This document shows, one piece after another, positions 18,001 to 24,000 of a stretch of 64,000 bases of DNA. Made by a program: the position numbers. The stretch is taken from the NCBI RefSeq assembly GCF_054482595.1, contig NZ_CM137008.1. One strand, written 5' to 3'. Positions within the stretch are counted from its first letter, which is position 1; every line of letters starts with the position of its first letter.

Positions 18001-21000
18001 CGCTACGTACGCCAAATTTACGCGCGGGATAATTGGCGGTGCTGATCACCCCTCGACGTTCGCGGCTGCCGCCAATAGCAATAGGGATATCGCGCAGGGC
18101 GGGATTGTCGCGCATCTCCACCGCTGCGAAAAAGCAGTCCATATCCACATGAATGATTTTACGCATTGCTCACCTCTCAACACTGGTAAAGTATACAGTG
18201 ATTTCAGGGTTTGAGAAATGCGTAAAGATTCAGCATTTAACGCGTTCGCTGCGAAAGCACCTGCTGCTTATCCAGCTTTTGCACCAGTGGCTGCACCACT
18301 TTATCCCCATGCTGACCAAAGTATTGATACAGCGTATCGGACGCACTTTTGGTCAGCACCATAATCTCAATACGCCGATTGCCCGCGCTTTGCGGATTTT
18401 TGGCATCCAGCAGCATCTGGTCCGCCATTGCGCTTACCTGCATCACTTTATCTTCCGGCATTCCGGCCTCTTCCAGCACCCGACGAGCTGAAAGCGCGCG
18501 ATCGCCCGAAAGGTTCCAGTTGTTGTAGATATTGTTTTTGTAGGCCATCGCATCGGTATGCCCGGTAATAATAATTTTGTTATCGAGCGAGTCGAACACT
18601 GGCGCTAGCTCCACCAGCAGCGTTTTAAAGAACGGCATAATCTTCGCGCTGCCGCGTTCGAACATATTGCGATTCTGGTCGTCTTTAATCAGCACGCGTA
18701 ATCCCTGGGGAACAATCTCCATCTCCAGATTCGCTTCCATATGCGCATCACGGGCAATGGTGTTGATACTGGTTGCCAACTCGCCAAGCTCGGTGGCGGA
18801 TTTCTTCTTCAGCAGCGCCGTTTTCTCATTCACATCACGCGCTTTTTTCTCCGTCTCTTCCGGCACCGCCACGGTGGCAGGTTTTGGCGGATGAGACGGG
18901 CTGATTTTATTTAACGGCGACAGCCCACCACCGTTAAAAATCGACTGCCCGTGCAGCGCGGCGATAATGCTTTCACGCTCGGATTTACTGACGCTGTTGA
19001 CAATCAACTTTATCGTCGTCACCAAAGGGGCCGAGCGTATTTCCGAGGTTTCTGCCCGCTTTACCCTGGACGCGATGCCCGGCAAACAGATGGCGATTGA
19101 CGCCGACCTTAACGCCGGGTTGATCAACCAGGCGCAGGCGCAAACCCGGCGTAAAGATGTCGCCAGCGAGGCCGATTTCTACGGCGCGATGGACGGGGCA
19201 TCAAAGTTTGTGCGCGGGGACGCCATCGCCGGGATGATGATTCTGGCGATCAACCTGATCGGCGGTGTCTGTATCGGGATCTTCAAATACAACCTGAGCG
19301 CCGATGCTGCCTTCCAGCAATATGTGCTGATGACCATCGGCGACGGGCTGGTGGCGCAGATCCCTTCCCTGCTGCTCTCCACCGCGGCGGCGATTATCGT
19401 CACCCGCGTCAGCGACAACGGCGATATCGCCCATGACGTGCGCCACCAGCTGCTGGCAAGCCCGTCGGTGCTCTACACCGCCACCGGGATTATGTTTGTG
19501 CTGGCGGTGGTGCCGGGAATGCCGCATCTGCCGTTTTTGCTGTTCAGCGCCCTGCTTGGCTTTACCGGCTGGCGGATGAGCAAACGCCCGCAGGCAGCGG
19601 AGGCGGAGGAGAAAAGTCTCGAAACGCTGACCCGCACCATCACCGAAACCAGCGAGCAACAGGTCAGTTGGGAAACGATACCGCTGATCGAGCCTATCAG
19701 TTTAAGCCTCGGCTACAAACTGGTGGCGCTGGTGGACAAAGCCCAGGGCAACCCACTCACCCAGCGGATCCGCGGCGTGCGACAGGTGATATCCGACGGC
19801 AACGGCGTGCTGCTGCCGGAGATCCGCATTCGGGAAAATTTCCGCCTCAAGCCCAGCCAGTACGCCATTTTCATCAACGGTATTAAGGCTGATGAAGCGG
19901 ATATTCCGGCGGATAAACTGATGGCCCTGCCCTCCAGCGAAACCTACGGCGAGATTGACGGCGTGCTGGGGAACGACCCGGCGTACGGGATGCCGGTGAC
20001 CTGGATCCAGCCCGCGCAGAAAGCGAAGGCGCTGAATATGGGGTATCAGGTGATCGACAGCGCCAGCGTGATTGCCACCCATGTGAATAAGATTGTGCGC
20101 AGCTATATTCCTGATTTGTTTAACTATGATGATATTACGCAGTTGCATAATCGTTTGTCGTCGATGGCACCGCGCCTGGCAGAAGACTTAAGCGCGGCGC
20201 TGAATTACAGCCAGTTGCTGAAAGTGTACCGCACACTACTGACCGAAGGCGTTTCCCTGCGCGATATCGTCACCATCGCCACCGTGCTGGTCGCCAGTAG
20301 CGCGGTGACTAAAGATCATATTCTGCTGGCGGCCGATGTACGCCTGGCGCTGCGGCGCAGCATTACCCATCCGTTCGTTCGCAAGCAGGAGCTGACGGTG
20401 TATACGCTGAATAATGAGCTGGAAAATCTGCTCACCAATGTGGTGAATCAGGCGCAACAGGGCGGCAAAGTGATGCTCGACAGCGTGCCGGTTGACCCGA
20501 ATATGCTCAACCAGTTCCAGAGCACGATGCCGCAGGTAAAAGAGCAGATGAAAGCGGCGGGGAAAGACCCGGTGCTGCTGGTGCCGCCGCAGCTTCGCCC
20601 TTTGCTGGCGCGCTATGCGAGATTGTTTGCGCCGGGGCTGCATGTGCTGTCGTATAACGAAGTGCCGGATGAGCTGGAGTTGAAGATTATGGGGGCGTTG
20701 ATGTAGGTATCCGGCATCGGTGCACAACCGCCGGATGCGGCGTGAACGCCTTATCCGGCCTACCGATCCGGCACAGGTTTGTAGGCATGATAAGACGCGC
20801 CAGCGTCGCATCAGGCATCCGCGCACAATTGCCGGATGCGGCACAAGTTTGTAGGCATGATAAGACGCGCTAGCGTCGCATCAGGCATCCGCGCACAATT
20901 ATGAAATGATACGCTCCCCGGCACTAAAATCCGTTATGTTACCCGCCCAATCAATGGGATATAACCCTCGCGCCACATCGCGATGGAACGTTGAGAATGG

Positions 21001-24000
21001 CCAATCACACACCTGCTTTACCCAGCCATGTTTCACTGGATTTATATAAATATAATCAACATGATGCCGATAATCTTTTGTATTACGGATGGCATGCTCC
21101 CAAAAACGTGGTTGCCAGATATTTTTCAATCCACAAGCATGGGTGAATTGCTTTTTAATCTCTCTCCAGCGCGAGGAAAAATCATCATCGCCTTCAGGTA
21201 ATGTCCATATGCAATGCATATGCTCTGGCAAAACGACCCAAGCGTTGATTTCAAAAGGTCTGTCTCGCTTAACGTTAATAATAGCGTTACGGAGCATCTG
21301 GAACTGAGCGGTCAGAAGGTGGCTTCGACGATTTCGTAGGTTAACCGTGAAAAACCAGGTTCCCCCCTTGATGTAATACCGACGATATTCAGACATAGCG
21401 ACTCCTTTTTCTCAACGGTAAGAAGAAAAGGAAAGGTTGGCAATGAGGTTGTTTTATATCGGGAAAGCGGCTCGCAAATATTCGCGGGCTCGTAGGCATG
21501 ATAAGACGCGCCAGCGTCGCATCAGGCACCTGCGTACAACTGCCGGATGCGGCGTAAACGCCTTATCCGTCCTACAAAATCGTCTCTTCCGTCAAAATCC
21601 GGCGCGCGCCTAAAAAATGATCCTGCCAGAAAGGTTCAGCTAACCGACTTACCCGAATGGTTTCCCCGGTGCGCGGTGACTCAATAAACTGACCGTCGCC
21701 CAGATATACCCCCATATGGTCGGCAATCTCGCGGCTGTGGATATGGAAAAACAGCAAATCTCCCCGGCGCAGGTCGTTATTCGCCACAATCGTTGCCCGA
21801 TGGTAGTGATACATCTCATTAGCCGTACGCTGGAGCTTCGCCTCGAGGATCTTGTTGTAGGCATAAAAAACCAACCCGCTACAGTCAAAGCCTTTATCAG
21901 GCCGCGTGCCGCCCCAGACGTAAGGCTTGCCAAGCTGCTGCTCCAGGCGGTGAATCGCCACTTCGGTAATGTTATGCAGATGGTCGCTGCTTAAAAAGTG
22001 GTTGTTTTCCGCCAGCGCCTGCCAGCGTCTGTCACTCGCCTTGAGCGGCGCAGGAAACCATTCTGGATGCTGTTTTATCTGTTCGCGGTTGTGCTGGCGC
22101 AGCGCCCTTCTGCTTTCGGCATTGCCTTCCACAATATAGCTGGCCTGCTTTTTCAGATGGGTTTGGTACTGTTTTAATAAACGCGCACGGTTTTGCATCC
22201 GCTGGCGGGCGGCGTAGCTGAAAGAGATATGTGATGTGGTGGCGCTGGCAAATGAAGAAAACGGCAAACAAATCAACAGTAATCCCGACAATACAAAGGA
22301 TGGAATCGACGGCAAGGACATACTCAATAATGGCTGGTCATGCTTTAATGTTGCAGTGTATCCCGGATCGTTTCTGAACAAACTTAATAAACCATTATTA
22401 TAAAATTAACATATATATTTCAGTGAATTATGTAAATACATCAGTTTATTGAATTGCTCATAAATTGCCGCTGTTGCTCAATTGAGCTACAATTCAAGCT
22501 GAATATATATACAGCACAGGAGATACCCCAATGGCTGCAAATGCATTTGTTCGCGCCCGAATCGATGAAGATCTGAAGAATCAGGCGGCGGACGTACTGG
22601 CCGGGATGGGGCTGACCATCTCTGACCTGGTTCGCATAACCCTCACAAAGGTCGCGCGTGAAAAGGCATTGCCGTTTGATTTACGCGAGCCTAATCAATT
22701 AACCATTCAATCAATCAAAAACAGCGAAGCTGGCGTTGGTGTTCATAAGGCCAAAGACGCCGATGATTTATTTGATAAATTAGGAATTTAAATATGATTC
22801 AAAGGGATATTGAATACTCGGGACAATTTTCAAAGGATGTAAAACTTGCACAAAAGCGTCATAAGGATATGAATAAATTGAAATATCTTATGACGCTTCT
22901 TATCAATAATACTTTACCGCTTCCAGCTGTTTATAAAGACCACCCGCTGCAAGGTTCATGGAAAGGTTATCGCGATGCTCATGTCGAACCGGACTGGCTC
23001 CTGATTTACAAACTTACCGATAAACTTTTACGATTTGAGAGAACTGGAACTCACGCGGCGCTCTTTGGGTAAAGCCCGCTGCCGATGAAATTTGTAAACC
23101 CTGCGCCGACAGGCTTGCGTAAAACTCTTTTGGTGATAATGTGAGCCTTCCAAATCCAGACTATTCCGATTTGGGATCCATTTTGCCGTCCTGGCGTGTG
23201 TAACCGTTTTATCAAGGAATAAGCAGTATGCGTAAAATCGCATTAATTCTTGCGATGTTGTTGATCCCGTGCGTTTCGTTTGCCGGTTTGCTGGGCAGCA
23301 GTAGCTCGACCACGCCAGTGAGCAAAGAGTATAAGCAGCAGTTGATGGGATCCCCTGTCTACATCCAGATCTTCAAGGAAGAACGTACGCTCGATCTCTA
23401 CGTCAAAATGGGTGAGCAATATCAACTGCTCGACAGCTATAAAATCTGTAAATATTCCGGCGGCTTAGGGCCAAAACAGCGTCAGGGCGATTTCAAAAGC
23501 CCGGAAGGGTTTTATAGCGTCCAGCGTAATCAGTTAAAACCAGACAGCCGTTACTACAAAGCGATTAATATTGGTTTCCCCAATGCCTATGACCGTGCGC
23601 ATGGTTATGAAGGGAAATACCTGATGATCCACGGCGATTGTGTTTCCATCGGCTGCTACGCAATGACCAATCAGGGTATTGATGAGATCTTCCAGTTCGT
23701 TACTGGTGCGCTGGTGTTTGGTCAGCCGAGCGTGCAAGTGAGTATTTACCCGTTCCGCATGACCGACGCTAATATGAAGCGCCACAAATATTCCAACTTT
23801 AAGGACTTCTGGGAGCAACTGAAGCCAGGCTACGACTACTTTGAGCAAACCCGTAAGCCACCGACCGTTTCTGTGGTCAATGGCCGTTACGTGGTCAGCA
23901 AGCCGTTAAGCCACGAAGTTGTGCAACCACAACTGGCATCAAACTACACGCTCCCCGAGGCAAAATAAGCGCCATTCGCCTGGCATAATCTTTTGCCAGG

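What the first reader, a model, noticed from the sequence alone, without database searches (positions are those of the whole stretch)
20707..21575. rayT flanked on both sides by REP clusters
The REP-associated tyrosine transposase gene (20899-21396) is bracketed by palindromic REP units at 20707-20900 and 21490-21575, the arrangement proposed for RayT-mediated REP mobilisation. A third REP cluster lies at 24762-24908.
Basis: partly seen in the sequence, partly recalled or inferred. Interest (0 to 1): 0.25.

Follow-up and report, generated by a model that had tools for sequence, protein, structure and literature searches.

The report
E. coli rayT gene with REP flanks
This is the well-described E. 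coli "REPtron": the single-copy domesticated transposase gene rayT sitting between clusters of the short palindromic REP repeats it cuts. It is real, correctly read and ordinary, differing from K-12 only by a small deletion in one repeat.

Summary
The ORF at 20899-21396 (- strand) encodes a 165-aa RayT/TnpA_REP. It is 157/165 identical to the crystallised K-12 enzyme (PDB 4ER8), and every catalytic and DNA-contact residue is kept.

The 64-kb window holds exactly eight full REP units, none expected by chance.
- 3' of rayT: y(-) 20730-63, z(+) 20781-817, z(+) 20851-87, plus two deletion remnants.
- 5' of rayT: z(+) 21492-528, y(-) 21542-75.
- A separate y-z-y element at 24770-24904.

K-12 has four full REPs on the 3' side; the window has three, because a 31-nt deletion removed most of one y unit. 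The 5' pair and the third cluster match K-12.

In 10 rayT-bearing loci the 5' side is constant, and in the nine with an intact 3' side that side carries 2-5 REPs. rayT is present, essentially single-copy, in 3574 of 5426 complete genomes. Other strains carry hicAB or an empty site instead.

All of this was published as the "REPtron" (Ton-Hoang 2012; Messing 2012). The third cluster is an ordinary repeat element downstream of gmhA, not part of it. Already known; low interest.

The parts
20703..20725 (+). Remnant of a z-type REP: GTAG plus the 3' tail ATCCGGCA. It lacks the 23-nt hairpin core. Its TAG (20704-20706) is the lfhA stop codon.
   Evidence: Loci L006/L007 carry a full z unit at this position, GATGTAGGCATGATAAGACGCGTCAGCGTCGCATCAGGCATCGG; the window and K-12 have GATGTAGG/GATGTAAG followed directly by the tail. 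The tail plus linker aligns to the 5' flank pair at 85% (D2).
20730..20763 (-). y-type REP. It reads GTAGGCCGGATAAGGCGTTCACGCCGCATCCGGC on the - strand.
   Evidence: 0 mismatches to the y unit; contains the independent 21-mer seed; hairpin -12.2 kcal/mol with internal mismatch.
20781..20817 (+). z-type REP, GTAGGCATGATAAGACGCGCCAGCGTCGCATCAGGCA. It is head-to-head with the y unit across a 17-nt linker (20764-20780).
20831..20842 (-). Remnant of a second y REP (GCCGGATGCGGC). The other 31 nt present in K-12 are deleted between two CGGCA repeats.
   Evidence: Alignment with K-12 shows a single 31-column gap. The identical junction occurs in XH990 (L002) and in L006/L007, which carry divergent rayT alleles.
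20851..20887 (+). z-type REP. Its 13-nt tail linker (20888-20900) runs straight into the rayT stop codon TAA (20899-20901, - strand).
   Evidence: 1 mismatch; canonical fold; sequence read.
20899..21396 (-). rayT (yafM, tnpA_REP): a 165-aa HUH single-tyrosine nuclease. H59-M60-H61, Y115, N119, H123, E161 and K82 are all present.
   Evidence: Residue roles come from Messing 2012. dN/dS against K-12 is 0.06. Annotated rayT, WP_021556447.1, in the identical genome GF66.1.
21397..21491 (-). rayT leader, 95 nt, with Shine-Dalgarno AGGAG at 21402-21406. No consensus sigma-70 promoter was found on this strand.
   Evidence: Sequence; promoter scan. 1 difference in 96 aligned columns from K-12.
21492..21528 (+). 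z-type REP of the single 5' BIME.
   Evidence: 0 mismatches. The pair is present in all 10 rayT-bearing loci examined, at a constant position in the nine equal-flank loci.
21542..21575 (-). y-type REP of the 5' BIME, tail-to-tail with the z unit across a 13-nt linker. The TAG of its GTAG (21572-21574, - strand) is the yafL stop codon.
   Evidence: The pair 21495-21572(-) matches Rfam naRNA4 at 73.3 bits against a gathering score of 59.5. yafL ORF end.
24770..24904 (.). Separate BIME between the gmhA stop and the yafJ start: y(-) 24770-24803 (degenerate hairpin), z(+) 24821-24857, y(-) 24871-24904. It is not part of the rayT unit.
   Evidence: Same composition in K-12. Rfam naRNA4 at 76.6 bits on 24824-24901(-).

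Best explanation
This is the E. coli REPtron. It consists of the vertically inherited, single-copy, domesticated IS200/IS605-like gene rayT (tnpA_REP) and the REP/BIME repeats that flank it: one z-y pair on its 5' side and a decayed (z)-y-z-(y)-z array on its 3' side.

RayT is a monomeric HUH nuclease with one catalytic tyrosine. It binds a single-stranded REP hairpin through the 5' GTAG and the bulge in the stem. It cuts at C|T dinucleotides in the neighbouring inverted REP or in the linker, forms a 5'-phosphotyrosine link, and can rejoin strands. The enzyme is thought to act in trans on the several hundred REPs of the genome, slowly creating, amplifying and reshuffling BIMEs.

The flanking units are the relic of the hairpin ends of the ancestral insertion sequence, further altered by local amplification and deletion.

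Shown here: gene identity, intact active site, purifying selection, the identity, orientation and hairpin structure of every unit, and the constant 5' versus variable 3' flank. Taken from published biochemistry on the K-12 enzyme: binding, cleavage and strand transfer. Inferred only: that this happens in vivo and maintains REP numbers.
For: Protein:
- 157/165 identity to 4ER8 and NF047646 at E 8e-53.
- H59/M60/H61, Y115, N119, H123, E161 and K82 are kept (translations; residue roles from PMC3479197).
- dN/dS is 0.05-0.09 against eight other alleles.

Repeats:
- Eight units at 0-3 mismatches, with 0 expected by chance.
- All eight carry GTAG, and seven of eight form the bulged hairpin.
- The y units on both flanks lie on rayT's strand and the z units on the other. 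The hairpins therefore have the same orientation on both sides, as in IS200/IS605.

Population:
- rayT is found in 3574/5426 genomes (66%), at a median of one copy. Ton-Hoang 2012 found 74/110.
- The 5' BIME and the 175-bp rayT-yafL gap are constant, and the 3' side has 2 to 5 full REPs. [quoted passage not shown]
- Where hicAB replaces rayT, the flanking REPs are gone too.

Biochemistry of the K-12 enzyme on these very flanks.
Against: - REP transposition by RayT has never been observed in vivo in E. coli.
- Ton-Hoang 2012 found only minor differences in REP number between strains with and without the gene, although Park 2021 reports more REPs in rayT+ genomes.
- A mobilome study saw no circular REP or rayT intermediates.
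- The two deletions in this window's 3' flank do not end at the C|T sites the enzyme needs in vitro. Their ends are TGCC^G microhomology and a near-symmetric loss of the hairpin centre. They look like replication slippage rather than enzyme footprints.
- No promoter was found for rayT.
- This allele differs from the tested K-12 enzyme at 8 residues, and its activity is untested.
Confidence: 0.9

Rival explanations
1. The flanking REPs are ordinary host-function repeats that simply sit at the 3' ends of lfhA, rayT and yafL, as REPs do genome-wide. Proposed host functions include mRNA 3'-end stabilisers or attenuators, gyrase/IHF/HU binding sites, and naRNA4-type nucleoid RNAs. On this view their adjacency to rayT has no mechanistic meaning.
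For: - Every cluster lies immediately after a stop codon. The stop codons of lfhA and yafL are the TAG of a GTAG, a general REP habit (PMC3733652).
- The two intact z-y pairs match Rfam naRNA4 above its gathering score.
- The third cluster, unrelated to rayT, has the same make-up.
- UPEC 26-1 keeps the BIMEs without rayT.
Against: - According to Ton-Hoang 2012, rayT genes in many genera are always flanked by REPs.
- The 5' BIME is present next to rayT in all 10 rayT-bearing loci examined.
- The hicAB allele and the third empty allele lose gene and REPs together.
- The K-12 enzyme binds and cuts exactly these flanking units in vitro.
- Host roles and being a RayT substrate are not mutually exclusive, so this is more a complement than a true rival.
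Confidence: 0.15
2. The whole unit (REPs plus rayT) is still an autonomous insertion sequence of the IS200/IS605 type that transposes as a block.
For: Hairpins of the same orientation sit on both sides of a Y1-type gene. There is a weak Pfam Y1_Tnp similarity (E 0.032). rayT appears on some plasmid records.
Against: - In all 10 rayT-bearing loci examined the gene sits next to yafL, and between yafL and lfhA wherever the 3' side is intact. It has a median of one copy in 3574 genomes.
- Of the plasmid hits, the one fetched (pHNAH212872-2) carries the chromosomal neighbourhood including lfhA, yafL, fadE and the Flag-2 genes. The listed 214-242 kb records from K-12 laboratory strains show rayT with its chromosomal neighbour yafL and are probably F' episomes.
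- Deep synonymous divergence with dN/dS of about 0.06 indicates long vertical residence.
- Pfam Y1_Tnp scores below its gathering threshold (14.8 against 23 bits).
Confidence: 0.02
3. The variable 3' flank, including this window's two deletions and the 70-bp tandem look, is produced by RayT acting in cis on its own neighbours, that is, by enzyme-driven local amplification and excision.
For: The 3' flank varies from 2 to 5 units while the rest of the locus keeps its order. In vitro the enzyme recombines inverted-REP and linker sites to add or remove REPs.
Against: The deletion junctions lack the indispensable C|T and sit in 3-5 nt microhomologies inside or next to hairpins. Tandem BIME arrays also change copy number without any need for RayT, for example the five-REPIN deletion in a mutation-accumulation line. 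The 5' flank, equally close to the gene, never varies in number.
Confidence: 0.1

Closest known systems
E. coli K-12 MG1655 REPtron: rayT/yafM/tnpA_REP (b0228) with its flanking BIMEs (Ton-Hoang et al. 2012, NAR 40:3596; Messing et al. 2012, NAR 40:9964, PDB 4ER8)
   Same: Same chromosomal site (yafL - rayT - lfhA). Same gene length. Same active-site residues. Identical 5' z-y BIME (0 differences in 84 nt) and near-identical leader (1 difference in 96 aligned columns). Same unit types and orientations on the 3' side. Same third BIME by gmhA.
   Different: 8 amino-acid substitutions, and 36/498 nucleotide differences (dS 0.34). The 3' flank has 3 full REPs instead of 4, because a 31-nt deletion removed most of the second y unit. 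The lfhA stop is TAG instead of TAA.
REPIN-RAYT systems (Nunvar 2010; Bertels & Rainey 2011; Bertels 2017; Park 2021)
   Same: A single-copy, vertically inherited Y1 nuclease gene flanked by the genome's own GTAG-tagged inverted REP pairs, under purifying selection.
   Different: E. coli pairs are asymmetric (y and z units differ). In this window none of the three tail-to-tail pairs on the 3' side is intact: one lost its z, one lost its y, and the last abuts rayT.
IS200/IS605 family insertion sequences (IS608, ISDra2)
   Same: An HUH motif plus a single catalytic tyrosine. Subterminal hairpins of the same orientation on both sides of the gene. Single-strand DNA chemistry.
   Different: RayT is a monomer, auto-inhibited and not mobile as a unit. 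It occupies one fixed site. The Pfam Y1_Tnp match is below threshold.
naRNA4 / REP325 nucleoid-associated RNA (Rfam RF02564)
   Same: The z-y pairs at 21495-21572 and 24824-24901 score 73-77 bits against a gathering score of 59.5.
   Different: The match only shows that these are BIME-type REP pairs like REP325. Transcription and HU binding of these particular copies are untested.

Membership tests
RAYT / TnpA_REP (REP-associated tyrosine transposase) | Sequence membership: match to the curated family model and to the characterised enzyme | tested here: met
   NF047646 equivalog at 178.3 bits against a cut-off of 80. 157/165 identity to 4ER8 chain A over the full length.
RAYT / TnpA_REP (REP-associated tyrosine transposase) | HUH metal-binding motif, a single catalytic tyrosine, and the extra ligands N119, H123 and E161 | tested here: met
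   H59-M60-H61, Y115, N119, H123, E161 and K82 are present in the translation. Their roles are as given in PMC3479197.
RAYT / TnpA_REP (REP-associated tyrosine transposase) | Flanked by the genome's own REPs (GTAG plus an imperfect hairpin) | tested here: met
   Three full units and two remnants lie 3' of the gene, and two units lie 5' of it.
RAYT / TnpA_REP (REP-associated tyrosine transposase) | Single copy per genome at a fixed locus, vertically inherited | tested here: met
   3574 genomes carry it, at a median of 1 and a maximum of 2 places. In the 10 rayT-bearing loci examined it is next to yafL, and between yafL and lfhA wherever the 3' side is intact. The plasmid copy that was fetched carries the same chromosomal neighbourhood.
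RAYT / TnpA_REP (REP-associated tyrosine transposase) | Binds and cleaves single-stranded REP DNA at C|T and transfers strands | not testable with these tools
   Shown only for the K-12 protein. This allele has 8 substitutions, none at a known functional residue.
REP / BIME repeats of E. coli | Conserved 5' GTAG followed by an imperfect palindrome with an internal mismatch | tested here: met
   GTAG is present in 8/8 units. The canonical bulged hairpin forms in 7/8. The unit at 24770-24803 is degenerate.
REP / BIME repeats of E. coli | High copy number, dispersed through the genome | tested here: met
   A query containing these units hits a median of 32 places per genome in 5425/5426 genomes, a count limited by the cap on matching pieces. 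An independent K-12 locus at 216055-216137 matches with 1 mismatch per unit. The independent 21-mer seed also matches.
REP / BIME repeats of E. coli | Alternating orientation of y and z units, separated by short head and tail linkers | tested here: met
   The y units are all on the - strand and the z units all on the + strand. Tail linkers are 13 nt and head linkers 17 nt.
IS200/IS605 insertion sequence | Pfam Y1_Tnp (PF01797) domain above the gathering score | tested here: not met
   14.8 bits against a cut-off of 23, E 0.032.
IS200/IS605 insertion sequence | Mobile as a unit: several copies or varying sites | tested here: not met
   One copy at one site across the species.
naRNA4 (Rfam RF02564) | Covariance-model match above the gathering score | tested here: met
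   73.3 and 76.6 bits against 59.5. Function as an HU-associated RNA was not tested.

The most novel reading that the evidence does not exclude
The locus is a fine-scale mosaic. A 180-bp K-12-type patch covering exactly the rayT leader plus the 5' BIME (21397-21575; 1 difference from K-12, 23 from the O157:H7 allele) is embedded between an O157-type rayT coding region and an O157-type yafL end. In addition, the same 31-nt y-REP deletion junction is shared by rayT alleles that differ at more than 8% of sites. The most novel reading is that REP/BIME units act in vivo as breakpoints for short-tract exchange between alleles, either by RayT-catalysed strand transfer or by REP-guided gene conversion. 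The rayT flanks would then record real in vivo activity of the system.
Probability: 0.06. Interest if true: 0.45.

Novelty: already known. Interest (0 to 1): 0.08.

Why it matters
It matters little as a discovery. The gene, its structure bound to this very repeat, its in vitro chemistry, the flanking arrangement, its constant 5' and variable 3' sides, and its loss alleles were all published in 2010-2012, and RefSeq already names the gene in the identical genome.

The check is useful as a confirmation on about 50 times more genomes. The share of strains carrying rayT is still two-thirds (66% of 5426 against 67% of 110), and the constant 5' and variable 3' flank pattern holds in the loci examined.

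It also documents one more flank variant (3 full REPs plus 2 remnants) whose deletion ends look like slippage rather than enzyme cuts. The open question of whether RayT moves REPs in living cells is not made more testable by this locus.

Tried and rejected
- A fuzzy-regex scan for REPs timed out. It was replaced by an ungapped Hamming scan.
- Pfam at the default threshold gave nothing for RayT. The family is only weakly similar to Y1_Tnp, so NCBIfam and PDB were used instead.
- I tried to count how many genomes share the window's deleted-y junction with a 171-nt megablast query. It was uninterpretable, because tandem REPs produce overlapping joined pieces; even the identical XH990 locus scored 98.7% in 2 pieces. 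Fetched loci were used instead.
Direct alignment shows 95-96% identity there.
- The promoter/terminator scan found no sigma-70 consensus on rayT's strand and no intrinsic terminator.
- rayT copies on plasmids were considered as evidence of mobility and rejected. The listed records are 214-242 kb plasmids of K-12 laboratory strains carrying rayT with yafL, probably F' episomes. The one record fetched is a 'plasmid' carrying chromosomal genes.
- I tested whether the two deletions end at the published RayT cleavage motifs TGCC|TGAT and CC|TAC. They do not.
- The lack of REPs in the other roughly 60 kb of the window looked odd. About 39 kb of it are strain-specific islands next to tRNA genes at the positions of thrW and aspV. 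In the shared core the count is 8 against K-12's 9.
- A yafJ dN/dS calculation failed because of a frame error and was dropped.

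
Full report
**What the region is.** The window is Escherichia coli DNA. 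Bases 16000-26000 are 100% identical to the chromosome of strain GF66.1, where the gene is already annotated as rayT. The region runs in reverse orientation relative to K-12 MG1655 at about 243-251 kb. The gene order is lafU', 'lfhA, rayT, yafL, dinJ-yafQ, dpaA (yafK), yafJ, gmhA, fadE.

**The gene.**
- The ORF at 20899-21396 on the - strand encodes 165 aa.
- It matches the crystallised K-12 TnpA_REP (PDB 4ER8) over its full length at E 1e-113, with 157/165 identical residues.
- It matches NCBIfam NF047646 'REP-associated tyrosine transposase' at 178 bits, against a cut-off of 80.
- Pfam's IS200-type Y1_Tnp model gives only 14.8 bits against a cut-off of 23. This fits the view that these proteins form a clade apart from true IS200/IS605 transposases.
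- All residues that Messing et al. 2012 identify as catalytic or DNA-contacting are present: H59-M60-H61, Y115, N119, H123, E161 and K82.
- Against eight other E. coli alleles, dN/dS is 0.05-0.09, so the gene is under purifying selection.

**The repeats.** I searched with the y-type unit (GTAGGCCGGATAAGGCGTTCACGCCGCATCCGGC) and the z-type unit (GTAGGCATGATAAGACGCGCCAGCGTCGCATCAGGCA) at up to 3 mismatches. Each gave four matches, against none in 100 shuffles. Relaxing to 11 mismatches adds no further unit anywhere in the 64 kb.

These query sequences came from the window itself, so I also used independent tests:
- The commonest E. coli 21-mer, used as a REP seed by Park et al. 2021, hits the same four y units.
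- The Rfam naRNA4 model, built on the K-12 REP325 element, hits two z-y pairs above its gathering score.
- An unrelated K-12 BIME at 216055-216137 matches with one mismatch per unit.
- A query containing the units hits a median of 32 places per genome, a count limited by the cap on matching pieces.

Folded as single-stranded DNA, seven of the eight units give the canonical structure: GTAG, a stem with a 2x2 internal mismatch, and a 4-nt loop. The y unit at 24770-24803 is degenerate. The units pass.

**Anatomy and orientation.** All y units read GTAG... on the - strand, which is rayT's strand. All z units read GTAG... on the + strand.
- 3' of rayT, between the lfhA stop and the rayT stop (20703-20900), the order is: z remnant (20703-20725), y (20730-20763), 17-nt head linker, z (20781-20817), 13-nt tail linker, y remnant (20831-20842), z (20851-20887), and a 13-nt tail linker that runs into the rayT stop codon.
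- 5' of rayT: a 95-nt leader with an AGGAG ribosome-binding site, then one tail-to-tail pair, z (21492-21528) and y (21542-21575).
- The lfhA stop (TAG, 20704-20706) and the yafL stop (TAG, 21572-21574 on the - strand) are each the TAG of a GTAG. This is a known REP habit.
- Because the hairpins have the same orientation on both sides of the gene, the layout resembles the left and right ends of an IS200/IS605 element.

- The 5' pair is identical to K-12 (0 differences in 84 nt) and the leader is nearly so (1 difference in 96 aligned columns).
- The 3' side of K-12 is (z remnant)-y-z-y-z, with four full units. The window has three, because a single 31-nt deletion between two CGGCA repeats removed most of the second y unit.
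- The z remnant at the lfhA stop is shared with K-12. Loci L006 and L007 still carry the full z unit there, which shows that 23 nt of hairpin core were lost.
- The third cluster (y-z-y) has the same composition in both.
- Across the K-12-syntenic core of the window (7635-29673) the counts are 8 REPs here against 9 in K-12, in the same three loci.
- The rest of the window, 1-7635 and about 29673-61230, has no K-12 counterpart in the fetched regions. It lies next to tRNA genes at the positions of K-12 thrW and aspV. It carries no REPs.

**Population context.**
- rayT is present in 3574 of 5426 complete E. coli genomes (66%), at a median of one copy. Ton-Hoang et al. found 74 of 110.
- In 10 rayT-bearing loci the 5' BIME is always present, and in the nine equal-flank loci the 175-bp rayT-yafL gap is constant. 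In the nine loci with an intact 3' side, the lfhA-rayT gap is 144-319 bp and holds 2 to 5 full REPs. This reproduces the published statement about an invariant 5' BIME and a variable 3' side.
- In the tenth locus an IS1 insertion truncates rayT and replaces its 3' flank.
- rayT-less alleles include the published ones: the gene precisely absent with the BIMEs kept (UPEC 26-1), and hicAB replacing both gene and REPs. A third has an unrelated 97-bp spacer that retains only the last 9 nt of the y unit.
- Copies on 'plasmids' travel with their chromosomal neighbours. The listed 214-242 kb records from K-12 laboratory strains carry rayT with yafL and are probably F' episomes. The one record fetched carries lfhA, yafL, fadE and the Flag-2 genes. 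Neither is evidence of mobility.

**Mechanism.** The following was established for the K-12 enzyme on these same flanking substrates. It binds single-stranded REP DNA only. It needs the GTAG and the stem mismatch. It cleaves at CC|T on either side of the inverted z unit and at C|T in linkers. It can recombine these sites to add REPs. It is a monomer, auto-inhibited by its C-terminus, and active only in Mn2+.

What remains inferred is that this chemistry disseminates or maintains REPs in vivo, in trans. The evidence is indirect and mixed.

In this window the two flank deletions do not end at C|T sites. One lies in TGCC^G microhomology and the other is a near-symmetric loss of the hairpin centre. 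I therefore attribute them to replication slippage at hairpins rather than to the enzyme.

No consensus promoter precedes rayT. The gene may be read through from yafL across the BIME or expressed very weakly. That would be consistent with its described down-regulation, but it is untested.

**The third cluster.** The element at 24770-24904 lies between the stop of gmhA and the start of yafJ, five genes from rayT. It has the same composition in K-12. It is an ordinary BIME, and one such locus within about 3 kb is not unusual. It is not part of the rayT unit.

**Verdict.** Everything essential is already in the literature as the E. coli REPtron. The only local particulars are a rare rayT allele (at least 99% identity in 14 records), a 3-REP 3' flank, and a fine-scale recombination mosaic. 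Novelty: already known. Interest: low.

Noticed in passing
window 19500-21900: There is a block of raised divergence from K-12 (92.5-96%, against 97-100% on either side) centred on rayT. Synonymous divergence is rayT dS 0.34 and yafL dS 0.23, against dinJ 0.07 and dpaA 0.08. The window's rayT allele is rare: at least 99% identity in only 14 records. Its nearest common allele is the O157:H7 type (95.4%).
   Followed up: partly
window 21397-21575: The locus is a sub-kilobase mosaic. The rayT leader plus the 5' BIME is K-12 type (1 difference in 180 aligned columns, against 23 for the O157:H7 allele). The rayT coding region (23/498) and the yafL 3' end (1/125) are O157 type, and differ from K-12 at 36/498 and 15/125. 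The patch ends coincide with the rayT start and the outer end of the y REP.
   Followed up: partly
L003 (E. coli O157:H7 NE92) 701-1198: The O157:H7 rayT carries an internal stop (W99*) and is annotated as a pseudogene, yet it keeps flanking REPs: two on the 3' side and the 5' pair.
   Followed up: partly
L013 (strain PRO_A-1534-6M-A_ESBL) 600-710: This is a third kind of rayT-less allele, with neither hicAB nor BIMEs. A 97-bp unrelated GC-rich palindromic spacer lies between lfhA and yafL. Only CCGTCCTAC, the end of the y REP that supplies the yafL stop codon, is retained. I did not check whether this allele has been described.
   Followed up: no
window 21495-21572 (-) and 24824-24901 (-): The two intact tail-to-tail z-y pairs match Rfam naRNA4 (RF02564, the HU-associated nucleoid RNA from REP325) above its gathering score. 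The 3' flank of rayT gives no such hit, because each of its tail-to-tail pairs has lost one partner.
   Followed up: no
window 1-7635 and 29673-61230: Two segments have no K-12 counterpart in the fetched K-12 regions. They lie next to tRNA genes (7656-7728 and 62215-62288) at the positions of K-12 thrW and aspV, and are probably integrated islands. They contain no REPs. A related record carries an RHS core protein and a TPR protein near the aspV side.
   Followed up: partly
window ~17100-17600 (L012 1164-2668): In the identical genome GF66.1, dinB is followed directly by yafP. The yafN-yafO toxin-antitoxin pair that sits between them in K-12 is absent.
   Followed up: no
window 18237-20706: lfhA is truncated and fused next to lafU, as in K-12 (the Flag-2 lateral-flagella cluster is deleted). 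Strain XH990 and the record pHNAH212872-2 carry the same rayT allele but keep a full-length flhA, and pHNAH212872-2 shows the whole Flag-2 cluster.
   Followed up: partly
L010 (strain AREA_492) 747-1823: An IS1 insertion truncates rayT (323 nt remain) and removes its 3' flank. This is an example of the IS-mediated rearrangement of the REPtron mentioned in the literature.
   Followed up: no
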